From sequence record OM313460: 52,782 nt of DNA; one strand, given 5' to 3'. The translations under genes were made by a program, and so were the position numbers. Each line of letters starts with the position of its first letter. The first letter of the stretch is position 1. The notes under the pieces are model-generated. The model did not search any database. It was not told where the DNA came from and saw only the letters and a program-made list of their open reading frames with translations. Source of the DNA: Escherichia phage vB_EcoM_IntR. Shown one piece after another: positions 39,020-47,210 of this stretch.

Positions 39020-39404
39020 TTCTTAACTCCTTACAAACAGTTTCGATAAACTTACGTTTTGTTTCAGTAGACCAGATTATATGTCGGGCCTTCTCTAATA
39101 CGTCCCAGCGGTCTTTACCCACAGGAAAGGGAACAATGAAGAGGCCGGTGCGAGATATACGCTTGATAAACGGGAACTTGCAACGCATGGTTGTTTCAAA
39201 TTTGATAAAGTTATTTTGCGCTTCGCGTGTAAATTTAACCTTATCAAATTCATGCTCGAGTGTTTGAGCAAGGTTGCATACCTCATGGAAAGAGGATGCA
39301 GGCAGGTAGTCTTCACGACCGACAGTGTTTACGTAGTCGATTTGACCTTCAAGACGAAGTATCCAAATTCTATAATAAGCTTCAGCGACACGTTGTAGAT
39401 TCAT
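39006..39404 (-). CDS. hypothetical protein
   Basis: 132-aa ORF with GAGGAGAG RBS, first gene downstream of the 39431-39459 promoter. Confidence 0.5.
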   Translation of the reverse strand: MNLQRVAEAYYRIWILRLEGQIDYVNTVGREDYLPASSFHEVCNLAQTLEHEFDKVKFTREAQNNFIKFETTMRCKFPFIKRISRTGLFIVPFPVGKDRWDVLEKARHIIWSTETKRKFIETVCKELRNAIQ

Positions 39405-39430
39405 TGTATCTCTCCTCTAAAAGATAACTT

Positions 39431-39459
39431 ATTATACCACATCACTCTCTAGTGGTAAA
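39431..39459 (-). promoter_or_regulatory. sigma70-type promoter on the minus strand (TTTACC-N17-TATAAT)
   Basis: Reverse complement of 39431-39459 reads TTTACC-17 nt-TATAAT. Confidence 0.55.
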
Positions 39460-39474
39460 GCACTTTTTATGCTT

Positions 39475-39509
39475 CGGGTAAAATAAAAAGGACCAGCGTT
39501 AACTGGTCC
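39475..39509 (-). terminator. rho-independent terminator (minus strand)
   Basis: GGACCAG-CGTTAA-CTGGTCC hairpin followed on the minus strand by TTTTTATTTT. Confidence 0.7.
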
Positions 39510-39741
39510 TTATGGCAGGGTGGCGTAAGGAGATACAAGGAATCGCAGTTATGCAACCAGGCAGCGCATATGAGATTGGCTTAAGGACTGACCGACTTAA
39601 TCCCCGCGACGAGTCGAAAGGAGGTACCATCAAGTAGCCAATCACATATGCGTTACTTGCTGTGTGCTCTTACCACAGAAAGTATATAGCGTTACACTTA
39701 TCACACAGTTGTAGTGGCAAAAGCACACAGCAAGTACAACC

Positions 39742-39828
39742 TTAGTTGTGGTGTCTTAGCACCTGAGTTATTGTGGATAACCTGCACCCGACGGGTGTCA
39801 AAAAGATACGCCAAAACACCACAACTAA
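39742..39828. repeat. 13-bp perfect inverted repeat pair flanking a DnaA-box-like 9-mer
   Basis: TTAGTTGTGGTGT at 39742-39754 and ACACCACAACTAA at 39816-39828; TGTGGATAA (reverse complement TTATCCACA) at 39772-39780; palindrome CACCCGACGGGTG at 39785-39797. Confidence 0.5.
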
Positions 39829-40079
39829 AATTGTGACCGCCGTCTACACCAGGCGCCTGGGGTCAAGGTAGCGAGCCAATACCCTTTTCAGCGTCGGAGG
39901 AATCGAACCTCACACATCACGGCTTTTACCAAATCTCGGTCAGCGAGCAGAATTGAACTGCATTCACTGGACACCCTCACTGTTTCAACACACCAGGCTT
40001 AATTGATTGTTGATAAGAAGAGAGATGTAAGGATGTCCATTGAATGCACCTCCGTAGAGGTGCGTTCAGATCAGCGCTA

Positions 40080-40547
40080 TTATTCAGCAACTTCTTCGTT
40101 GTCGCCTTCGATCGCGCCAGCCAGTTTAGCAGCTTCAGCTTTAGCAGCTTCTGCTTTCTGGCGAGCTTTTTCAGCTTTCTCTTCAGCTTTGCGAATCTGC
40201 TCAGCAGCTTTCGCTTCGGCTTTTTCAGCTTTGATGCGAGCACGCTCTTCAGCTTTACGCTGTTTTTCAGCAGCTTTAGCAGCATCGCGTTCTGCTTTAG
40301 CGGTATCAACGCGCTTAGCCAGAACTTTACCAGTGGCTTTACGCCAGTAGGTCAGCTGGGAAGAAACAGTACCACGGGACATTTCGGTAGTGGCAACAAC
40401 TTCGTCCATAACATCGGAGCTGGACTTGCCTTCTTCATGGGCTTTATCAGCCAGGTCCCATACGTAACGTGCGCCAGTACCAGCTGCCGGATACAGTACG
40501 CCGTTAACTTCTTCTTTACCAGTTACAAAAGTCAGTTTCTCGCTCAT
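40080..40547 (-). CDS. hypothetical protein with C-terminal Lys/Ala/Glu-rich single-helix repeat
   Basis: ATG at 40545-40547 with GAGGAAAA RBS; C-terminus KAEKAEAKAAEQIRKAEEKAEKARQKAEAAKAEAAK; overlapping + strand ORFs are low-complexity mirror frames. Confidence 0.5.
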   Translation of the reverse strand: MSEKLTFVTGKEEVNGVLYPAAGTGARYVWDLADKAHEEGKSSSDVMDEVVATTEMSRGTVSSQLTYWRKATGKVLAKRVDTAKAERDAAKAAEKQRKAEERARIKAEKAEAKAAEQIRKAEEKAEKARQKAEAAKAEAAKLAGAIEGDNEEVAE

Positions 40548-40653
40548 AATTTTTTCCTCGTCTACAGGGCTTAATGTTTGTTCGTTACGTGAGTTAATAT
40601 ACGTCATTTAAAAGAGAGTGTAAACACCTTTTTTAAACTTTTTTCATTAGTGT

Positions 40654-40881
40654 TTAGAAAGGCACATCATAGTCAAAAAGTTTACATCCGGAAGACAGGA
40701 CTGCCGGCGGTGGTGTTTTGCCTCCGGATAATAGACAACCTCCTGCCTGAAAGCTACGGCAGTTCGCACAGCTCATATCCTGCAGGTATATAATAAGCTG
40801 CCGGCGAACGTGCCGAGGCAAAGCTTTAGCCTGGGTTGCTACCCGTTCAAATAGTTCTCTGTTATCGAGCGCCATAGCCAT
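40654..40881 (-). CDS. hypothetical Cys-containing small protein
   Basis: 75-aa ORF overlapping the helicase 3' end by 20 nt. Confidence 0.3.
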   Translation of the reverse strand: MAMALDNRELFERVATQAKALPRHVRRQLIIYLQDMSCANCRSFQAGGCLLSGGKTPPPAVLSSGCKLFDYDVPF

Positions 40882-42532
40882 TTCCCCAGTCGTAGTTCAT
40901 GATTTGTGGGTAGGGCCGTTTAATCCATACCTTAATACGCTTAGGAATGGCCAGCTCACCCTTACGGCGGATAAACTCGTCGCATGTTTCAGGCGGTTCG
41001 GTTCCTGCAGCATTACGCCACCAGGCATCTGCCATTTGTTTAGCATTACCATGGGCCTCAATATTTACCCAAGTTGTGTACACTTCCAGGTTTGAGTAGT
41101 ACACAACCTTTATACTGTCAGGTCGTCCTTGCTTCTGGAATAAAGAATAGTTTACCAGCGTAACATCTTTATCCACAACACGAAGCTGGCCATTAGTCAT
41201 TACTTCTTCTTCTGACGAAGTGAATGCAATAGCAGGTCCGTTAACTGTAAATTCAAATTCATGTCCGCACATCGGATATACACCATTCTCATCTGGCGTA
41301 CTTCCTTTAGCCGGATGCTTACACGTACGGGCGGCATAACCACTTACCTGGTGGCAGATAGGGCACTCTTTACCGCCAGGTGTTTTCTCTGACCGTTTCT
41401 TTTTCTTCTTACCAAGACGTGGCGGAACAGCCGGGTCATCAATAGGCCCAAGGTCAATGGTGTTAGATGTAAAGTCCATGACAAGACAGTCATGCTTACC
41501 AGGCGCTGTACGTAACCCTCGACCGAGTATCTGCACCCACAAAGCAACAGACGTGGACGGGCGCAAGATGCCGAGCATATCAATCTCAGGATAGTCAAAT
41601 CCTGTTGTCAATACGTTTACGTTTACACAGACCCGTGCTCGTCCGCTTGTAAACTCTTCCAGCGCCGTTTCACGTTCTTTCTTTGTAAGACCGCCATGCA
41701 CAACTACAGTCTGCCACCCTCGCAGATTAAATTCGTCTGCTATGTTGTGGGCGTGTTCAACACTTGTGGCGAATACAAGAACGTGGTTCCTGTCTTTACC
41801 GTAGTGCATCATCTCGCGGATGGCTGCAACTGTTATGCTGTGTTGGTTGGCTACCTTCTCAAGCTCTGACGGTATATAATCACCCATCCTTTCGCCAACA
41901 TTACTGGTGTCAATCTTGGTTAACACTTTCTTGTTGACCAGGCGTGACAGGAAGCCTTCATTTACCAGTCTGGTGAATGCGTCAGGTGTTGTAAGGTCAT
42001 AGCAGATGTCGGTAAATATACCGCAGTCAAGTAAGTGACCACCCGCCAGTCGATACGGAGTTGCTGTAAGGCCTGTTACCTTTACCTTAGGATTAAGCTC
42101 TTTGAAATGAGCAATAACCTTACGGTATGTTGTTTCAGACTTCTCAGGAACAAGATGGGCTTCGTCAATGAATATAAGATTGAACTTACCTGCTTCTTCC
42201 AGGTTCTTAATAATCGACTGTACTGACGCTACAACGATACGACCTGAAAAGTCTTTGTGTCCTGCGCCTGAAGAGTAGATTGATACTGGTGCTTGCGGCC
42301 AGTGGCGAACAATCGCTTTGGCGTCTTGTTCTACCAGCTCCTTGACGTGTGTCAATATAAGAATACGCTGACGTGGATAGCTGGTAAGAATATCCTTCAT
42401 CAACATACCAAGCACAGGTGATTTACCTGAACCTGTAGGCATGACAATAAGTGGATTACCACTATAAGAATTGAAGTACGACCACCAAGCTGTGACCGCT
42501 TCTTTTTGATACCAGCGAGCTTCAAAAGCCAT
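40862..42532 (-). CDS. SF2 DNA helicase (DEAH-type)
   Basis: Motif I MPTGSGKS, motif II FIDEAH, motif III TATP, motif VI QILGRGLR; C-terminal Cys cluster CPICH...C. Confidence 0.8.
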   Translation of the reverse strand: MAFEARWYQKEAVTAWWSYFNSYSGNPLIVMPTGSGKSPVLGMLMKDILTSYPRQRILILTHVKELVEQDAKAIVRHWPQAPVSIYSSGAGHKDFSGRIVVASVQSIIKNLEEAGKFNLIFIDEAHLVPEKSETTYRKVIAHFKELNPKVKVTGLTATPYRLAGGHLLDCGIFTDICYDLTTPDAFTRLVNEGFLSRLVNKKVLTKIDTSNVGERMGDYIPSELEKVANQHSITVAAIREMMHYGKDRNHVLVFATSVEHAHNIADEFNLRGWQTVVVHGGLTKKERETALEEFTSGRARVCVNVNVLTTGFDYPEIDMLGILRPSTSVALWVQILGRGLRTAPGKHDCLVMDFTSNTIDLGPIDDPAVPPRLGKKKKKRSEKTPGGKECPICHQVSGYAARTCKHPAKGSTPDENGVYPMCGHEFEFTVNGPAIAFTSSEEEVMTNGQLRVVDKDVTLVNYSLFQKQGRPDSIKVVYYSNLEVYTTWVNIEAHGNAKQMADAWWRNAAGTEPPETCDEFIRRKGELAIPKRIKVWIKRPYPQIMNYDWGNGYGAR

Positions 42533-46304: not shown

Positions 46305-47210
46305 TTACAGCAGTTCTGCTTTCATGGCAGCGATACCATCAAGCAATGCTTTGATGTCCGGATTAGATGCTGCCAGGTCTGCAACAACTGACTGACGACG
46401 ACGTTCCAGCTCTTTCTCAACTTCCAGGTCGAGGCGTGCTGATGCTTCACGCAATAAGGTTTCAACCTGCTGACGACGCTGGTACTTGTTAAAGTCAGGT
46501 ACATCAACCAGCCATTTGAGAGTTGCAGTATTATAGCCAGAAGTATTGGCTGCACTTACAGACACAACGTCAACCAGCTTAGTACCGTTTAAGTCCGGAT
46601 AGTTAACATTGCGAACGTCAACAACTGCTTTGTCGCCTACACTTACTTTGCCGATGTACTTGTATGTGTACACACGACCATTCGGTTCAAATTTAACACC
46701 GACGAACTTCAGTTTGTCGTCGGCAATAACTTCTTCCTCAACTTTGAAGTTGATTGCTGTGTTCTTGACAGGTGCAGCCGCTTTGAGCTTAGCAACCATG
46801 TACTGTTCGGAATGAGCAGGACGGCACAGACGGAATACGTCTTCATTGTACGTCAGCCAGTTACCAGTCTCATCCATGCATGCAATCTGATTAGTGCCAT
46901 CCAGCGAACGAACACCCGGACGATTCTTCTCAACACGATACAGCTTACCTTCTTTCAGGTTAGCATAAGAACGGCGGGCGATACCCCAGTTGTGTTTTTC
47001 AGATTCATACTTAGCGAAACGGTCAACACTGAAGTTCTGCTTCAGACCACGGTCGTCAATTACCCATAAGTTATCGTAAGCACCGCCGAAAGAACCCAGG
47101 TTGGCATACACTTTGCCCTGCGTCAACAGGGAAGTGTTTCCCTCGTCAACACAGATAACAAAACCCAGAGCTTCGTGTGCTTTACCGCTGCGGTCAAATA
47201 CTGTAGTCAT
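46305..47210 (-). CDS. hypothetical protein
   Basis: 301-aa ORF, AAGGAAA RBS. Confidence 0.55.
   Translation of the reverse strand: MTTVFDRSGKAHEALGFVICVDEGNTSLLTQGKVYANLGSFGGAYDNLWVIDDRGLKQNFSVDRFAKYESEKHNWGIARRSYANLKEGKLYRVEKNRPGVRSLDGTNQIACMDETGNWLTYNEDVFRLCRPAHSEQYMVAKLKAAAPVKNTAINFKVEEEVIADDKLKFVGVKFEPNGRVYTYKYIGKVSVGDKAVVDVRNVNYPDLNGTKLVDVVSVSAANTSGYNTATLKWLVDVPDFNKYQRRQQVETLLREASARLDLEVEKELERRRQSVVADLAASNPDIKALLDGIAAMKAELL

What the first reader, a model, noticed from the sequence alone, without database searches (positions are those of the whole stretch)
40080..40547. Protein with a long Lys/Ala/Glu single-alpha-helix repeat next to the ORF-free segment
The C-terminal ~70 residues are an almost pure K/A/E/R/Q periodic repeat, typical of stable single alpha helices or TolA-like spacers, attached to a ~85-aa N-terminal domain. 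Such proteins are uncommon in phage replication modules. It could be a nucleoid-associated or DNA-bridging factor, or a spacer or ruler protein.
Basis: seen in the sequence. Interest (0 to 1): 0.4.

Follow-up and report, generated by a model that had tools for sequence, protein, structure and literature searches.

The report
Abundant phage DNA-binding head-and-rod protein
This is a real, probably very highly expressed 155-residue phage protein with a small helix-turn-helix head (distantly like plasmid KfrA), a stiff ~10 nm Ala/Lys/Glu helix and an acidic tip; it belongs to a large unnamed phage family that sits beside the replication helicase, and its function has never been tested.

Summary
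Window 40080-40547 (-) encodes a 155-aa protein (BP63_59, phrog_28664). Residues 81-147 are 88% K/A/E/R/Q and are predicted as one 67-residue helix. This helix follows a folded ~75-aa head.

The gene is real:
- dN/dS is 0.10-0.14 in the head and 0.23-0.28 in the tail.
- It has a GAGGA ribosome-binding site and its own sigma-70-like promoter.
- Peptides of a 91%-identical orthologue were detected by LC-MS/MS.

The claim that such proteins are uncommon is wrong. The head is an unnamed domain with no Pfam or NCBIfam model. It matches about 2,000 protein clusters. Across several phage groups it lies right after the Cas4-like exonuclease, helicase and small-protein genes. It is usually joined to an Ala/Lys/Glu helix, on either side.

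Profile-profile comparison links the head's three helices to the KfrA_N HTH (probability 83%, P 9e-6; shuffled controls are far lower). No solved structure matches significantly.

The rod is neither a classic ER/K single alpha-helix nor a canonical coiled coil. Codon optimisation equals that of the major head protein.

My best reading (about 0.45) is an abundant KfrA-like architectural DNA-binding protein of the replication module. No binding or oligomerisation has been shown. I rate it a new variant of a known kind, of moderate interest.

The parts
40596..40624 (-). Sigma-70-like promoter for the gene: -35 TTTACA, 17-nt spacer, -10 TATATT
   Evidence: The consensus scan gives 10 of 12 matches. 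BP63 annotates a promoter at the equivalent place. It is a prediction only.
40555..40559 (-). Shine-Dalgarno sequence GAGGA, 7 nt upstream of the ATG at 40547
   Evidence: Read directly from the sequence.
40080..40547 (-). Coding sequence of the 155-aa protein, including the stop codon at 40080-40082. It equals BP63_59 and belongs to phrog_28664.
   Evidence: dN/dS is 0.10-0.28 in this frame. The fHy-Eco03 gp60 orthologue was detected by LC-MS/MS.
40323..40547 (-). Head domain, residues 1-75: a beta-hairpin plus a three-helix HTH-like bundle. Family-wide conserved residues are P20, W30, D34, Q64, W68, R69 and G73.
   Evidence: AF2 models. Alignments. About 2,000 representative clusters match the domain profile. 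hhalign against KfrA_N gives probability 83% and P 8.8e-6.
40302..40322 (-). Basic linker, residues 76-82 (LAKRVDT)
   Evidence: Non-helical in the AF2 model. The segment 73-80 (GKVLAKRV) carries net +3.
40110..40301 (-). Ala/Lys/Glu helical rod, residues 83-146, about 10 nm if straight
   Evidence: A single helix at 83-149 in the AF2 model, with pLDDT about 88-92 over residues 91-130. Composition. 3.56-residue periodicity and heptad table. No indel among Rosemountvirus, Loughboroughvirus and SOI901 orthologues.
40083..40109 (-). Acidic, probably disordered C-terminal tip, residues 147-155 (EGDNEEVAE)
   Evidence: Low pLDDT. The last 12 residues have net negative charge in 35 of 35 orthologues, mean -4.5.
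40041..40068 (-). 12-bp hairpin directly after the stop codon, with no U-run. A hairpin is also present at this place in SOI901, with a different stem sequence.
   Evidence: Inverted repeat I9. Alignment of four phages.
39488..40040 (-). ORF-free, highly structured downstream segment that ends in a terminator-like hairpin plus T-run (39488-39511). It is probably co-transcribed with the gene.
   Evidence: Terminator scan. Chain of long hairpins. RNA fold of 39480-40085 gives z = -9.0. There is no tRNA or Rfam family here.

Best explanation
The gene encodes a small, very abundant, KfrA-like 'head-and-rod' protein of the phage replication/recombination module.

Shown:
- It is a real, selected and translated gene with its own promoter-like site.
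- It has a ~75-aa folded head, a 67-residue uninterrupted helix and an acidic tip.
- The head belongs to a large, unnamed domain family that is common in phages and nearly absent from plasmids. This domain is habitually joined to Ala/Lys/Glu helices.
- The gene always follows the Cas4-like exonuclease, DEAD/ResIII helicase and small-protein genes.
- Its codon optimisation matches that of the major head protein.

Inferred:
- The head binds double-stranded DNA through helix 3 (T-x-x-S/T-Q-x-x-x-W-R-K) and the basic linker, in the manner of the KfrA N-terminal HTH.
- The rod is a stiff ~10 nm Ala-rich helix. It holds heads apart as a monomeric spacer, or pairs weakly through its Ala stripe and distal hydrophobic patch (L141, I145). 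Relatives carry a clearer 2-3-heptad zipper at that distal position.
- Dimers or higher oligomers would then coat, bridge or space phage DNA during replication.
- The acidic tip either contacts a replisome partner or folds back on the basic head.
For: Gene reality:
- dN/dS is 0.10-0.14 in the head and 0.23-0.28 in the tail, at dS 0.45-0.67.
- Ribosome-binding site and promoter.
- LC-MS/MS detection of the 91%-identical fHy-Eco03 gp60.

Anatomy: AF2 models with pLDDT 83.8 and 86.8.

Head as an HTH:
- hhalign of a 199-sequence head alignment against KfrA_N gives probability 83%, P 8.8e-6 and score 28.8 over all three helices. One hundred column-shuffled controls give 9.8 +/- 2.0 with a maximum of 16.2.
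- Pfam KfrA_N aligns co-linearly with the relative P0019 (residues 28-132 to profile positions 4-108 of 113, E 0.014).
- All top Foldseek hits are HTH or winged-HTH DNA binders, or RRE domains.
- The family head is net positive (mean +4.2; 97% of members above 0), and the charge is focused on helix 3.
- The domain occurs twice in MuF-ART polyvalent proteins, and with Rho_N/SAP-like and zinc-ribbon modules. Such proteins commonly carry dsDNA-binding domains (PMC5512222).

KfrA precedent: an HTH head plus an Ala-rich, non-canonical helical tail that oligomerises and forms filaments on DNA (PMC7821693, PMC7783346).

Abundance: Fop is 0.87 against 0.64 expected (z 6.2; head alone z 4.2). In size of excess over expectation only the major head protein is comparable, and both exceed SSB and the scaffold protein.

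Synteny.

Rod features:
- 67% of 144 representative family members carry a K/A/E-rich segment of at least 20 aa.
- Large hydrophobic residues rise from 2% in the proximal fifth of the rod to 13% in the distal fifth.
- Rod length is invariant within the genus-level group.
Against: - No DNA binding, oligomerisation or abundance has been measured for any member.
- The target itself does not reach the Pfam KfrA_N threshold. The close-family profile against a single KfrA sequence gives only P 0.034.
- No solved structure matches significantly; the best E-value is 0.19.
- The best-ranked fold, the RRE, binds peptides rather than DNA.
- The target's head has net charge 0.
- In the target, only 3 of 20 best-register a/d positions hold large hydrophobic residues, so dimerisation is doubtful.
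- No repeated operator-like motif was found near the gene or dispersed in the genome.
- Codon bias is only a proxy for expression.
- The S144 virion mass-spectrometry table does not list the orthologue.
Confidence: 0.45

Rival explanations
1. It is a sequence-specific transcription regulator of phage middle or late genes (activator, repressor or autoregulator). The HTH head would read an operator. The rod would serve only for dimerisation or for reaching RNA polymerase. This is what the names 'transcriptional activator' and 'FtrA domain' on relatives imply.
For: - The head is HTH-like.
- KfrA itself is an autorepressor (PMC7821693).
- The gene has its own promoter.
- Relatives in CAjan, Iggy, R7M and HD01 are named transcriptional activators.
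Against: - Those names could not be reproduced. The CAjan, Iggy and HD01 relatives gave no FtrA match against NCBIfam, only low-complexity matches such as TolA, and 139 family representatives gave no regulator match against Pfam.
- Codon optimisation as high as that of the major head protein is unusual for a regulator.
- No operator-like repeat was found in its promoter, and no shared motif was found across promoters (10 matches against 6.1 expected).
Confidence: 0.2
2. It is a protein-binding adaptor of the replisome and does not bind DNA. The head would grip a partner peptide in the manner of an RRE or PqqD domain. The acidic tip at the end of the rod would dock onto the helicase, polymerase or SSB, as the acidic tails of T7 gp2.5 and T4 gp32 do (established knowledge, from memory).
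For: - The top fold hits are RRE domains: TbiB1 with probability 0.7 and the same beta-beta-alpha-alpha-alpha order.
- The acidic tip is invariant.
- The gene has a fixed position beside the helicase and a small Cys-rich protein.
Against: - The RRE matches are not significant (E about 0.2, RMSD 7-8 angstroms).
- The KfrA_N profile similarity is stronger.
- Positive charge lies on helix 3 across the family.
- The domain co-occurs with other DNA-binding modules.
Confidence: 0.15
3. The tail is a true monomeric single alpha-helix that acts purely as a molecular ruler or spacer, with no self-association.
For: - One helix is predicted at residues 83-149.
- The proximal ~45 residues have almost no large hydrophobic residues.
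- Segments such as AEAAKAEAAK match Ala-based E/K peptides known to be stable monomeric helices (Marqusee and Baldwin, from memory).
- Rod length is invariant within the genus-level group despite repetitive DNA.
Against: - E-to-K pairs at i+4 are not enriched (4 against 4.1).
- Charged residues make up only 51% of the tail.
- The Ala/hydrophobic 3.56-residue periodicity is significant (P 0.006).
- Relatives carry distal heptad zippers.
- Rod length varies from 54 to 81 residues across the wider orthologous family, and the helix can lie on either side of the head.
Confidence: 0.15
4. It is not a real gene, but a chance ORF in low-complexity DNA.
For: Long ORFs occur on both strands over the repeat.
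Against: - Purifying selection acts in this frame, including in the non-repetitive head.
- The head matches about 2,000 homologous clusters.
- There is a ribosome-binding site and a promoter.
- Peptides were detected in fHy-Eco03.
- Codon optimisation is extreme.
Confidence: 0.01

Closest known systems
KfrA-type proteins of IncP-1 and IncU plasmids (Pfam KfrA_N, PF11740; R751, RK2, RA3)
   Same: Both have an N-terminal HTH head followed directly by a long, Ala-rich, non-canonical alpha-helical tail. The three head helices show profile-profile similarity (hhalign probability 83%, P 8.8e-6). KfrA binds DNA, oligomerises through its tail and forms filaments on DNA (PMC7821693, PMC7783346).
   Different: - The tail is 67 residues here, against about 250 in KfrA.
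- This protein has an extra N-terminal beta-hairpin carrying the family motif N-G-x-x-R-P.
- The tip is acidic; RA3 KfrA has a basic tip.
- The gene lies in a lytic-phage replication module, not in a plasmid kfrA-kfrB-kfrC stability operon.
- The domain is virtually absent from plasmids (1 of 72,556 records).
- The target does not reach the Pfam gathering score.
ER/K single alpha-helix (SAH) domains, such as those of myosin VI and X, caldesmon and drebrin
   Same: Both are long, uninterrupted, highly charged helices. The proximal two-thirds of this rod lacks a hydrophobic seam.
   Different: This tail is 36% Ala and only 51% charged. There is no excess of E-to-K pairs at i+4. It has a significant Ala stripe at a 3.56-residue period and a distal hydrophobic patch.
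H-NS, MvaT and Rok-type nucleoid-associated proteins
   Same: All are small proteins built from a helical oligomerisation or spacer element, a linker and a compact DNA-binding domain. The Rok DNA-binding domain appears among the weak fold hits. High expression is inferred here.
   Different: There is no sequence or significant structural homology. The domain order is reversed. The helical element here is mostly uncharacteristic of a stable coiled coil.
TolA domain II and the ATP synthase b subunit dimerisation helix
   Same: These share Lys/Ala/Glu-rich long helices. They give weak sub-threshold matches: ATP-synt_B at E 0.014 and TolA models in relatives.
   Different: The matches are compositional only. 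This protein has no membrane anchor and no TolA domain III. All scores are far below the curated cut-offs.

Membership tests
KfrA family (Pfam PF11740 KfrA_N) | Match to the KfrA_N profile at or above the gathering score (26.1 bits) | tested here: not met
   The target has no KfrA_N hit at E <= 1. The best relative, P0019, scores 16.5 bits at E 0.014.
KfrA family (Pfam PF11740 KfrA_N) | Remote homology of the HTH head, detectable by profile-profile comparison | tested here: inconclusive
   hhalign gives probability 83%, P 8.8e-6 and 43 aligned columns. Shuffled controls reach at most 16.2 against 28.8. The close-family profile against a single KfrA sequence gives only P 0.034. No KfrA structure exists for comparison.
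KfrA family (Pfam PF11740 KfrA_N) | HTH head followed at its C-terminus by a long alpha-helical (coiled-coil) tail | tested here: met
   AF2 places the head at residues 11-72 and a single helix at 83-149. 97% of KfrA_N proteins have this order (PMC7821693). In wider relatives of the phage family the helix can also lie N-terminal to the head.
KfrA family (Pfam PF11740 KfrA_N) | Site-specific binding to an operator in its own promoter, and tail-mediated oligomerisation | not testable with these tools
   No convincing operator repeat lies near 40590-40690. This needs EMSA and cross-linking.
KfrA family (Pfam PF11740 KfrA_N) | Encoded in a plasmid stability or partition region (korB-kfrA-kfrB-kfrC) | tested here: not met
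   Here the gene lies in a lytic-phage replication module. The domain was found in 1 of 72,556 plasmid records. For comparison, R751 has kfrA next to the ParB-family gene, kfrB and kfrC.
ER/K single alpha-helix (SAH) | A long helix dominated by E, K and R, with enriched i-to-i+4 (or i+3) E-K/R pairs | tested here: not met
   Charged residues are 51% and Ala is 36%. E-to-K pairs at i+4 number 4 against 4.1 +/- 1.6 in shuffles. Only i+3 pairs are raised, at 8 against 4.1.
ER/K single alpha-helix (SAH) | No hydrophobic seam, and monomeric in solution | tested here: inconclusive
   Only 3 of 20 best-register a/d positions hold large hydrophobic residues, but 11 of 20 are Ala and the periodicity is significant. 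The oligomeric state cannot be tested here.
Canonical dimeric coiled coil | Heptad a/d positions mostly occupied by large hydrophobic residues | tested here: not met
   The best register gives 3 large hydrophobic, 11 Ala and 6 charged residues out of 20. Relatives have short distal zippers.
TolA | N-terminal membrane anchor, Lys/Ala/Glu-rich domain II and a C-terminal globular domain III, with a match to TolA models | tested here: not met
   The target has no TolA match. The sequence shows no hydrophobic anchor. Relatives give only sub-threshold hits to the low-complexity part.
PHROG phrog_28664 (unknown function) | Full-length match to the family profile | tested here: met
   E 6.4e-99, covering 1-155 of 155 positions.

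The most novel reading that the evidence does not exclude
The head is a previously unnamed, essentially phage-specific DNA-binding domain (about 2,000 clusters at 50% identity). Coupled to Ala/Lys/Glu rods, it would define a new class of abundant phage-encoded 'nucleoid' or replication-factory organisers. These would be miniature KfrA-like proteins that coat and bridge replicating phage DNA at a spacing set by the ~10 nm rod, and that recruit replisome partners through the acidic tip.
Probability: 0.2. Interest if true: 0.7.

Novelty: new variant of a known kind. Interest (0 to 1): 0.42.

Why it matters
If the reading is right, many lytic phages carry their own abundant DNA-architectural protein next to the helicase. 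These include Rosemountvirus, Loughboroughvirus, Queuovirinae such as 9g and CAjan, and Pseudomonas Iggyvirus and PaMx25-like phages. This component of phage replication has not been described. It is currently annotated as 'hypothetical', 'TolA-like' or 'transcriptional activator', names that this work could not support.

Three practical gains would follow:
- The ~70-aa head could be given a domain definition, which would improve the annotation of thousands of proteins.
- It would give a tractable 155-aa model for how Ala-rich non-canonical helices work in KfrA-type proteins.
- It would add a natural example of an (EAAAK)-like rigid helix.

If the reading is wrong, the family remains a conspicuous, highly expressed unknown that is worth a simple EMSA.

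Tried and rejected
- Pfam, NCBIfam and PDB sequence searches on the target, 29 homologues and 139 representatives gave only low-complexity noise such as ATP-synt_B, CAF1A_acidic, TolA and adenylate kinase PRK13808.
- Foldseek against the PDB, with both the full model and the head-only model, gave no hit below E 0.19.
- Foldseek against BFVD returned only uncharacterised phage proteins.
- A search for operator or iteron motifs found nothing beyond chance. This covered local repeats, genome-wide repeats and the -35-region motif AAGGTGTTTACA (10 matches against 6.1 expected).
- The 'FtrA/transcriptional activator' label on relatives could not be reproduced.
- A virion structural role is rejected. 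fHy-Eco03 LC-MS/MS labelled 48 of 81 proteins, including the helicase and ThyA, as particle-associated. The S144 virion table lacks the orthologue.
- tRNA and Rfam searches of the adjoining ORF-free segment found nothing.
- A plasmid origin like that of KfrA is rejected.

Full report
**Where the window comes from.** The window is a complete Rosemountvirus genome, a BP63-like myovirus of Salmonella and E. coli. The stretch 39400-40900 is 99.3% identical to Escherichia phage vB_EcoM_PiR and 97-99% identical to about 44 other records. The finding corresponds to BP63_59, which is annotated 'hypothetical protein' in every record. It matches phrog_28664 (unknown function) at full length, E 6e-99.

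**Checking the observation.** The minus-strand ORF 40080-40547 gives a 155-aa protein.
- Residues 81-147 are 88% K/A/E/R/Q (A 36%, K 19%, E 19%). Residues 1-80 are of ordinary composition.
- AlphaFold2 with 29 homologues (pLDDT 83.8) predicts a beta-hairpin at 11-20, three helices at 25-39, 43-53 and 58-72, a short basic linker, one uninterrupted helix at 83-149, and a low-confidence acidic end.
- A head-only model agrees (pLDDT 86.8, pTM 0.75).
- The start at 40547 is supported by a GAGGA 7 nt upstream and by the starts of orthologues. The upstream ATG at 40607, used for the 175-aa annotation in some records, lies between the predicted -35 and -10 hexamers.

**Is it a gene?** Yes.
- Nei-Gojobori dN/dS against fHy-Eco03, S144 and SOI901 is 0.10-0.14 in the head and 0.23-0.28 in the tail, at dS 0.45-0.67.
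- The fHy-Eco03 orthologue gp60 (91% identical over the N-terminal 91 aa) was detected by LC-MS/MS. That experiment also labelled the helicase, the exonuclease and ThyA as 'particle-associated'. It therefore proves translation, not a virion role. The S144 virion table does not list the orthologue.
- The plus-strand mirror ORFs are the trivial consequence of a sense strand without TTA, CTA or TCA codons.

**Family and context.**
- Forty-two close and distant homologues share a conserved head (P20, W30, D34, Q64, W68, R69, G73). Their tails drift in sequence but keep their composition.
- A profile of the head alone finds 2,008 representative clusters at E <= 1e-3 and 708 at E <= 1e-10, among 1.84 billion proteins.
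- The family motif is Q-N-G-[VI]-x-R-P-x-x-G-T-x-T-G-x-V-W-x-I-A-D ... G-[IL]-N-x-A-T-x-x-T-Q-Y-x-R-W-R-K-F-x-G.
- None of 139 representatives has a meaningful Pfam domain. NCBIfam gives nothing either. The related PHROGs (18634, 11298, 21588 and others) are all of unknown function.
- 67% of 144 representatives carry a K/A/E-rich segment of at least 20 aa, and 30% carry one of at least 50 aa (A 36%, K 21%, E 16%, net +0.05 per residue). The segment can lie on either side of the head.
- Other fusion partners are a Rho_N/SAP-like module with a zinc ribbon and, with two copies of the domain, MuF-ADP-ribosyltransferase/zincin polyvalent proteins. This class of protein often carries dsDNA-binding modules (PMC5512222).
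- The domain occurs in more than 200 phage records but in only 1 of 72,556 plasmids.
- The gene order is always Cas4-like exonuclease, DEAD/ResIII helicase, small protein, then this gene. This holds in Rosemountvirus, Loughboroughvirus S144, Erwinia phages SOI901 and RF1, Vibrio pVco-14, Acinetobacter HD01, CAjan, Iggy and two metagenomic contigs.

**What the head is.**
- No solved structure matches significantly. The best is the TbiB1 RRE at E about 0.2. The rest of the list is HTH and winged-HTH DNA binders: homeodomains, MecI, Fur, DeoR and the Rok DNA-binding domain.
- The pattern 'V-W-x-x-A-D-x-x-x-x-x-G ... T-x-x-x-Q-x-x-x-W-R' recalled the KfrA N-terminus, so I tested that link.
- Pfam KfrA_N aligns co-linearly with relative P0019 at E 0.014, below threshold.
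- The close-family profile against R751 KfrA gives P 0.034 in the expected register.
- A 199-sequence head alignment against an alignment of R751 KfrA plus 120 homologues gives hhalign probability 67-83%, P 5e-5 to 9e-6 and score 28.8. One hundred column-shuffled controls average 9.8 +/- 2.0 with a maximum of 16.2, and the reversed profile scores 11.8.
- I take this as good but not conclusive evidence for remote homology to the KfrA HTH.
- Across the family the head is net positive (mean +4.2), and the charge is concentrated on helix 3. This fits a recognition helix. In the window's protein the head is neutral overall, but helix 3 plus the linker carry +6.

**What the tail is.**
- It is not a classic ER/K SAH. 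Only 51% of residues are charged, and E-to-K pairs at i+4 number 4 against 4.1 expected.
- It is not a canonical coiled coil. The best heptad register has 3 large hydrophobic, 11 Ala and 6 charged residues at 20 a/d positions.
- It does carry a significant Ala/hydrophobic stripe with a period of 3.56 residues (P 0.006).
- In the orthologous family, large hydrophobic residues rise from 2% in the proximal fifth of the rod to 13% in the distal fifth. In other branches they form short zippers such as LKDEERLRKLQEKV and IAKLEEQIGKLSIRLSTL. In the window only L141 and I145 remain.
- Within the Rosemountvirus, Loughboroughvirus and SOI901 group the helix has no indels despite repetitive DNA. Indels are confined to the tip.
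- The last 12 residues are acidic in 35 of 35 orthologues, with a mean charge of -4.5.
- This resembles the Ala-rich, non-canonical, marginally stable tails described for KfrA (PMC7821693), in miniature.

**Expression.**
- The gene has its own sigma-70-like promoter (40624-40596).
- A conserved hairpin follows the stop codon.
- The first terminator-like site lies about 570 nt downstream, at 39511-39488.
- The fraction of E. coli-optimal codons is 0.87, against 0.64 expected from its amino-acid composition and genome-wide synonymous usage (z 6.2). The head alone gives z 4.2.
- In size of excess over expectation only the major head protein is comparable (0.86 against 0.60). SSB and the scaffold protein follow. 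The optimal-codon set is from my own knowledge of E. coli.
- This points to a stoichiometric, abundant protein rather than a low-copy regulator.

**Most likely mechanism (confidence about 0.45).** The protein is an abundant KfrA-like head-and-rod protein of the replication module.
- The head would bind DNA.
- The ~10 nm rod would space or weakly pair the heads.
- The acidic tip would contact a partner or the head itself.
- DNA binding, oligomerisation and abundance are inferences.

**Rivals.**
- A specific transcription regulator (0.2).
- A non-DNA-binding replisome adaptor with an RRE-like head (0.15).
- A purely monomeric SAH ruler (0.15; this concerns the tail only and is compatible with DNA binding).
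- A non-gene (0.01).

**Comparison with known families.** The closest is KfrA.
- Shared features are the head-tail architecture, the Ala-rich tail and the profile similarity.
- The phage family fails the Pfam threshold and lacks the plasmid context.
- It also has an extra beta-hairpin, a tail four times shorter and an acidic rather than basic tip.
- I therefore do not file it as a KfrA family member. I describe it as a new, phage-specific variant of the KfrA-type design.

**Verdict.** This is a new variant of a known kind, of moderate interest (0.42), with a cheap decisive experiment: EMSA plus SEC-MALS.

Noticed in passing
window 39480-40085 (minus strand): The ORF-free segment downstream of the gene is an exceptionally structured RNA: MFE -238 kcal/mol against -175 +/- 7 in shuffles, z = -9.0. 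It consists of a chain of long hairpins with 22-25-nt arms. It has no tRNA or Rfam match and no iterons. It lies between the gene's stop codon and a terminator-like site at 39488-39511, so it is probably the gene's 3' extension or a co-transcribed non-coding RNA.
   Followed up: partly
window 39893-39913; L006 3583-3743: In Erwinia phage SOI901 the equivalent intergenic segment carries tRNA-Pro and tRNA-Gln. The window keeps a T-arm-like motif (GAGGTTCGATTCCTC on the minus strand) but has no detectable tRNA. The segment differs strongly between close relatives, while the flanking hairpin, terminator and next promoter are conserved. It may be a decayed or remodelled tRNA cluster.
   Followed up: partly
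window 40041-40068: A 12-bp hairpin sits immediately after the stop codon and has no U-run. It is conserved in S144 and fHy-Eco03. In SOI901 a different sequence at the same place also forms a hairpin (GCCCCTC...GAGGGGC). This suggests a selected RNA structure, either a 3' stabiliser or a processing site.
   Followed up: no
window 40654-40881 (minus strand): A 75-aa Cys-rich protein (phrog_23504, unknown function) overlaps the end of the helicase gene. In most of the phage groups examined, a small (56-75 aa) ORF sits between the helicase and this gene family. It is a candidate partner.
   Followed up: no
window 46305-47210 (minus strand): This 301-aa protein of unknown function (phrog_33391) has the third-strongest composition-corrected codon optimisation in the genome (z 5.1), above SSB. 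It is another probably abundant unknown in the replication region.
   Followed up: no
L004 2199-4273 (Acinetobacter phage HD01); L012 2940-3743 (CAjan); L013 3333-3929 (Iggy): Relatives are annotated 'transcriptional activator' or 'FtrA domain-containing'. No FtrA or regulator model matched them here; only TolA-type low-complexity hits appeared. The name looks like a propagated artefact. HD01 has two paralogues side by side, one of them with a Rho_N/SAP-like module plus a zinc ribbon instead of the K/A/E helix.
   Followed up: partly
P0051, P0078, P0060 (metagenomic proteins): Two copies of the same head domain are embedded in large MuF-ADP-ribosyltransferase/zincin 'polyvalent' proteins. Such proteins are presumed to be packaged and injected with phage DNA.
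   Followed up: partly
window 540, 556, 696, 699, 701, 717, 850-851: The window contains ambiguous bases (N) near its left end. Its length equals that of Escherichia phage vB_EcoM_swi3 (52,782 bp) and the coordinates coincide. However, the 39400-40900 stretch is only 96.9% identical to that record, and the best match is phage PiR at 99.3%.
   Followed up: no
window 40548-40607: Several GenBank records (emiel, triss, SPLA11) annotate a 175-aa product starting at the ATG equivalent to 40607. This start lies inside the predicted promoter and lacks a ribosome-binding site, so the 155-aa BP63-style start is the better call.
   Followed up: yes
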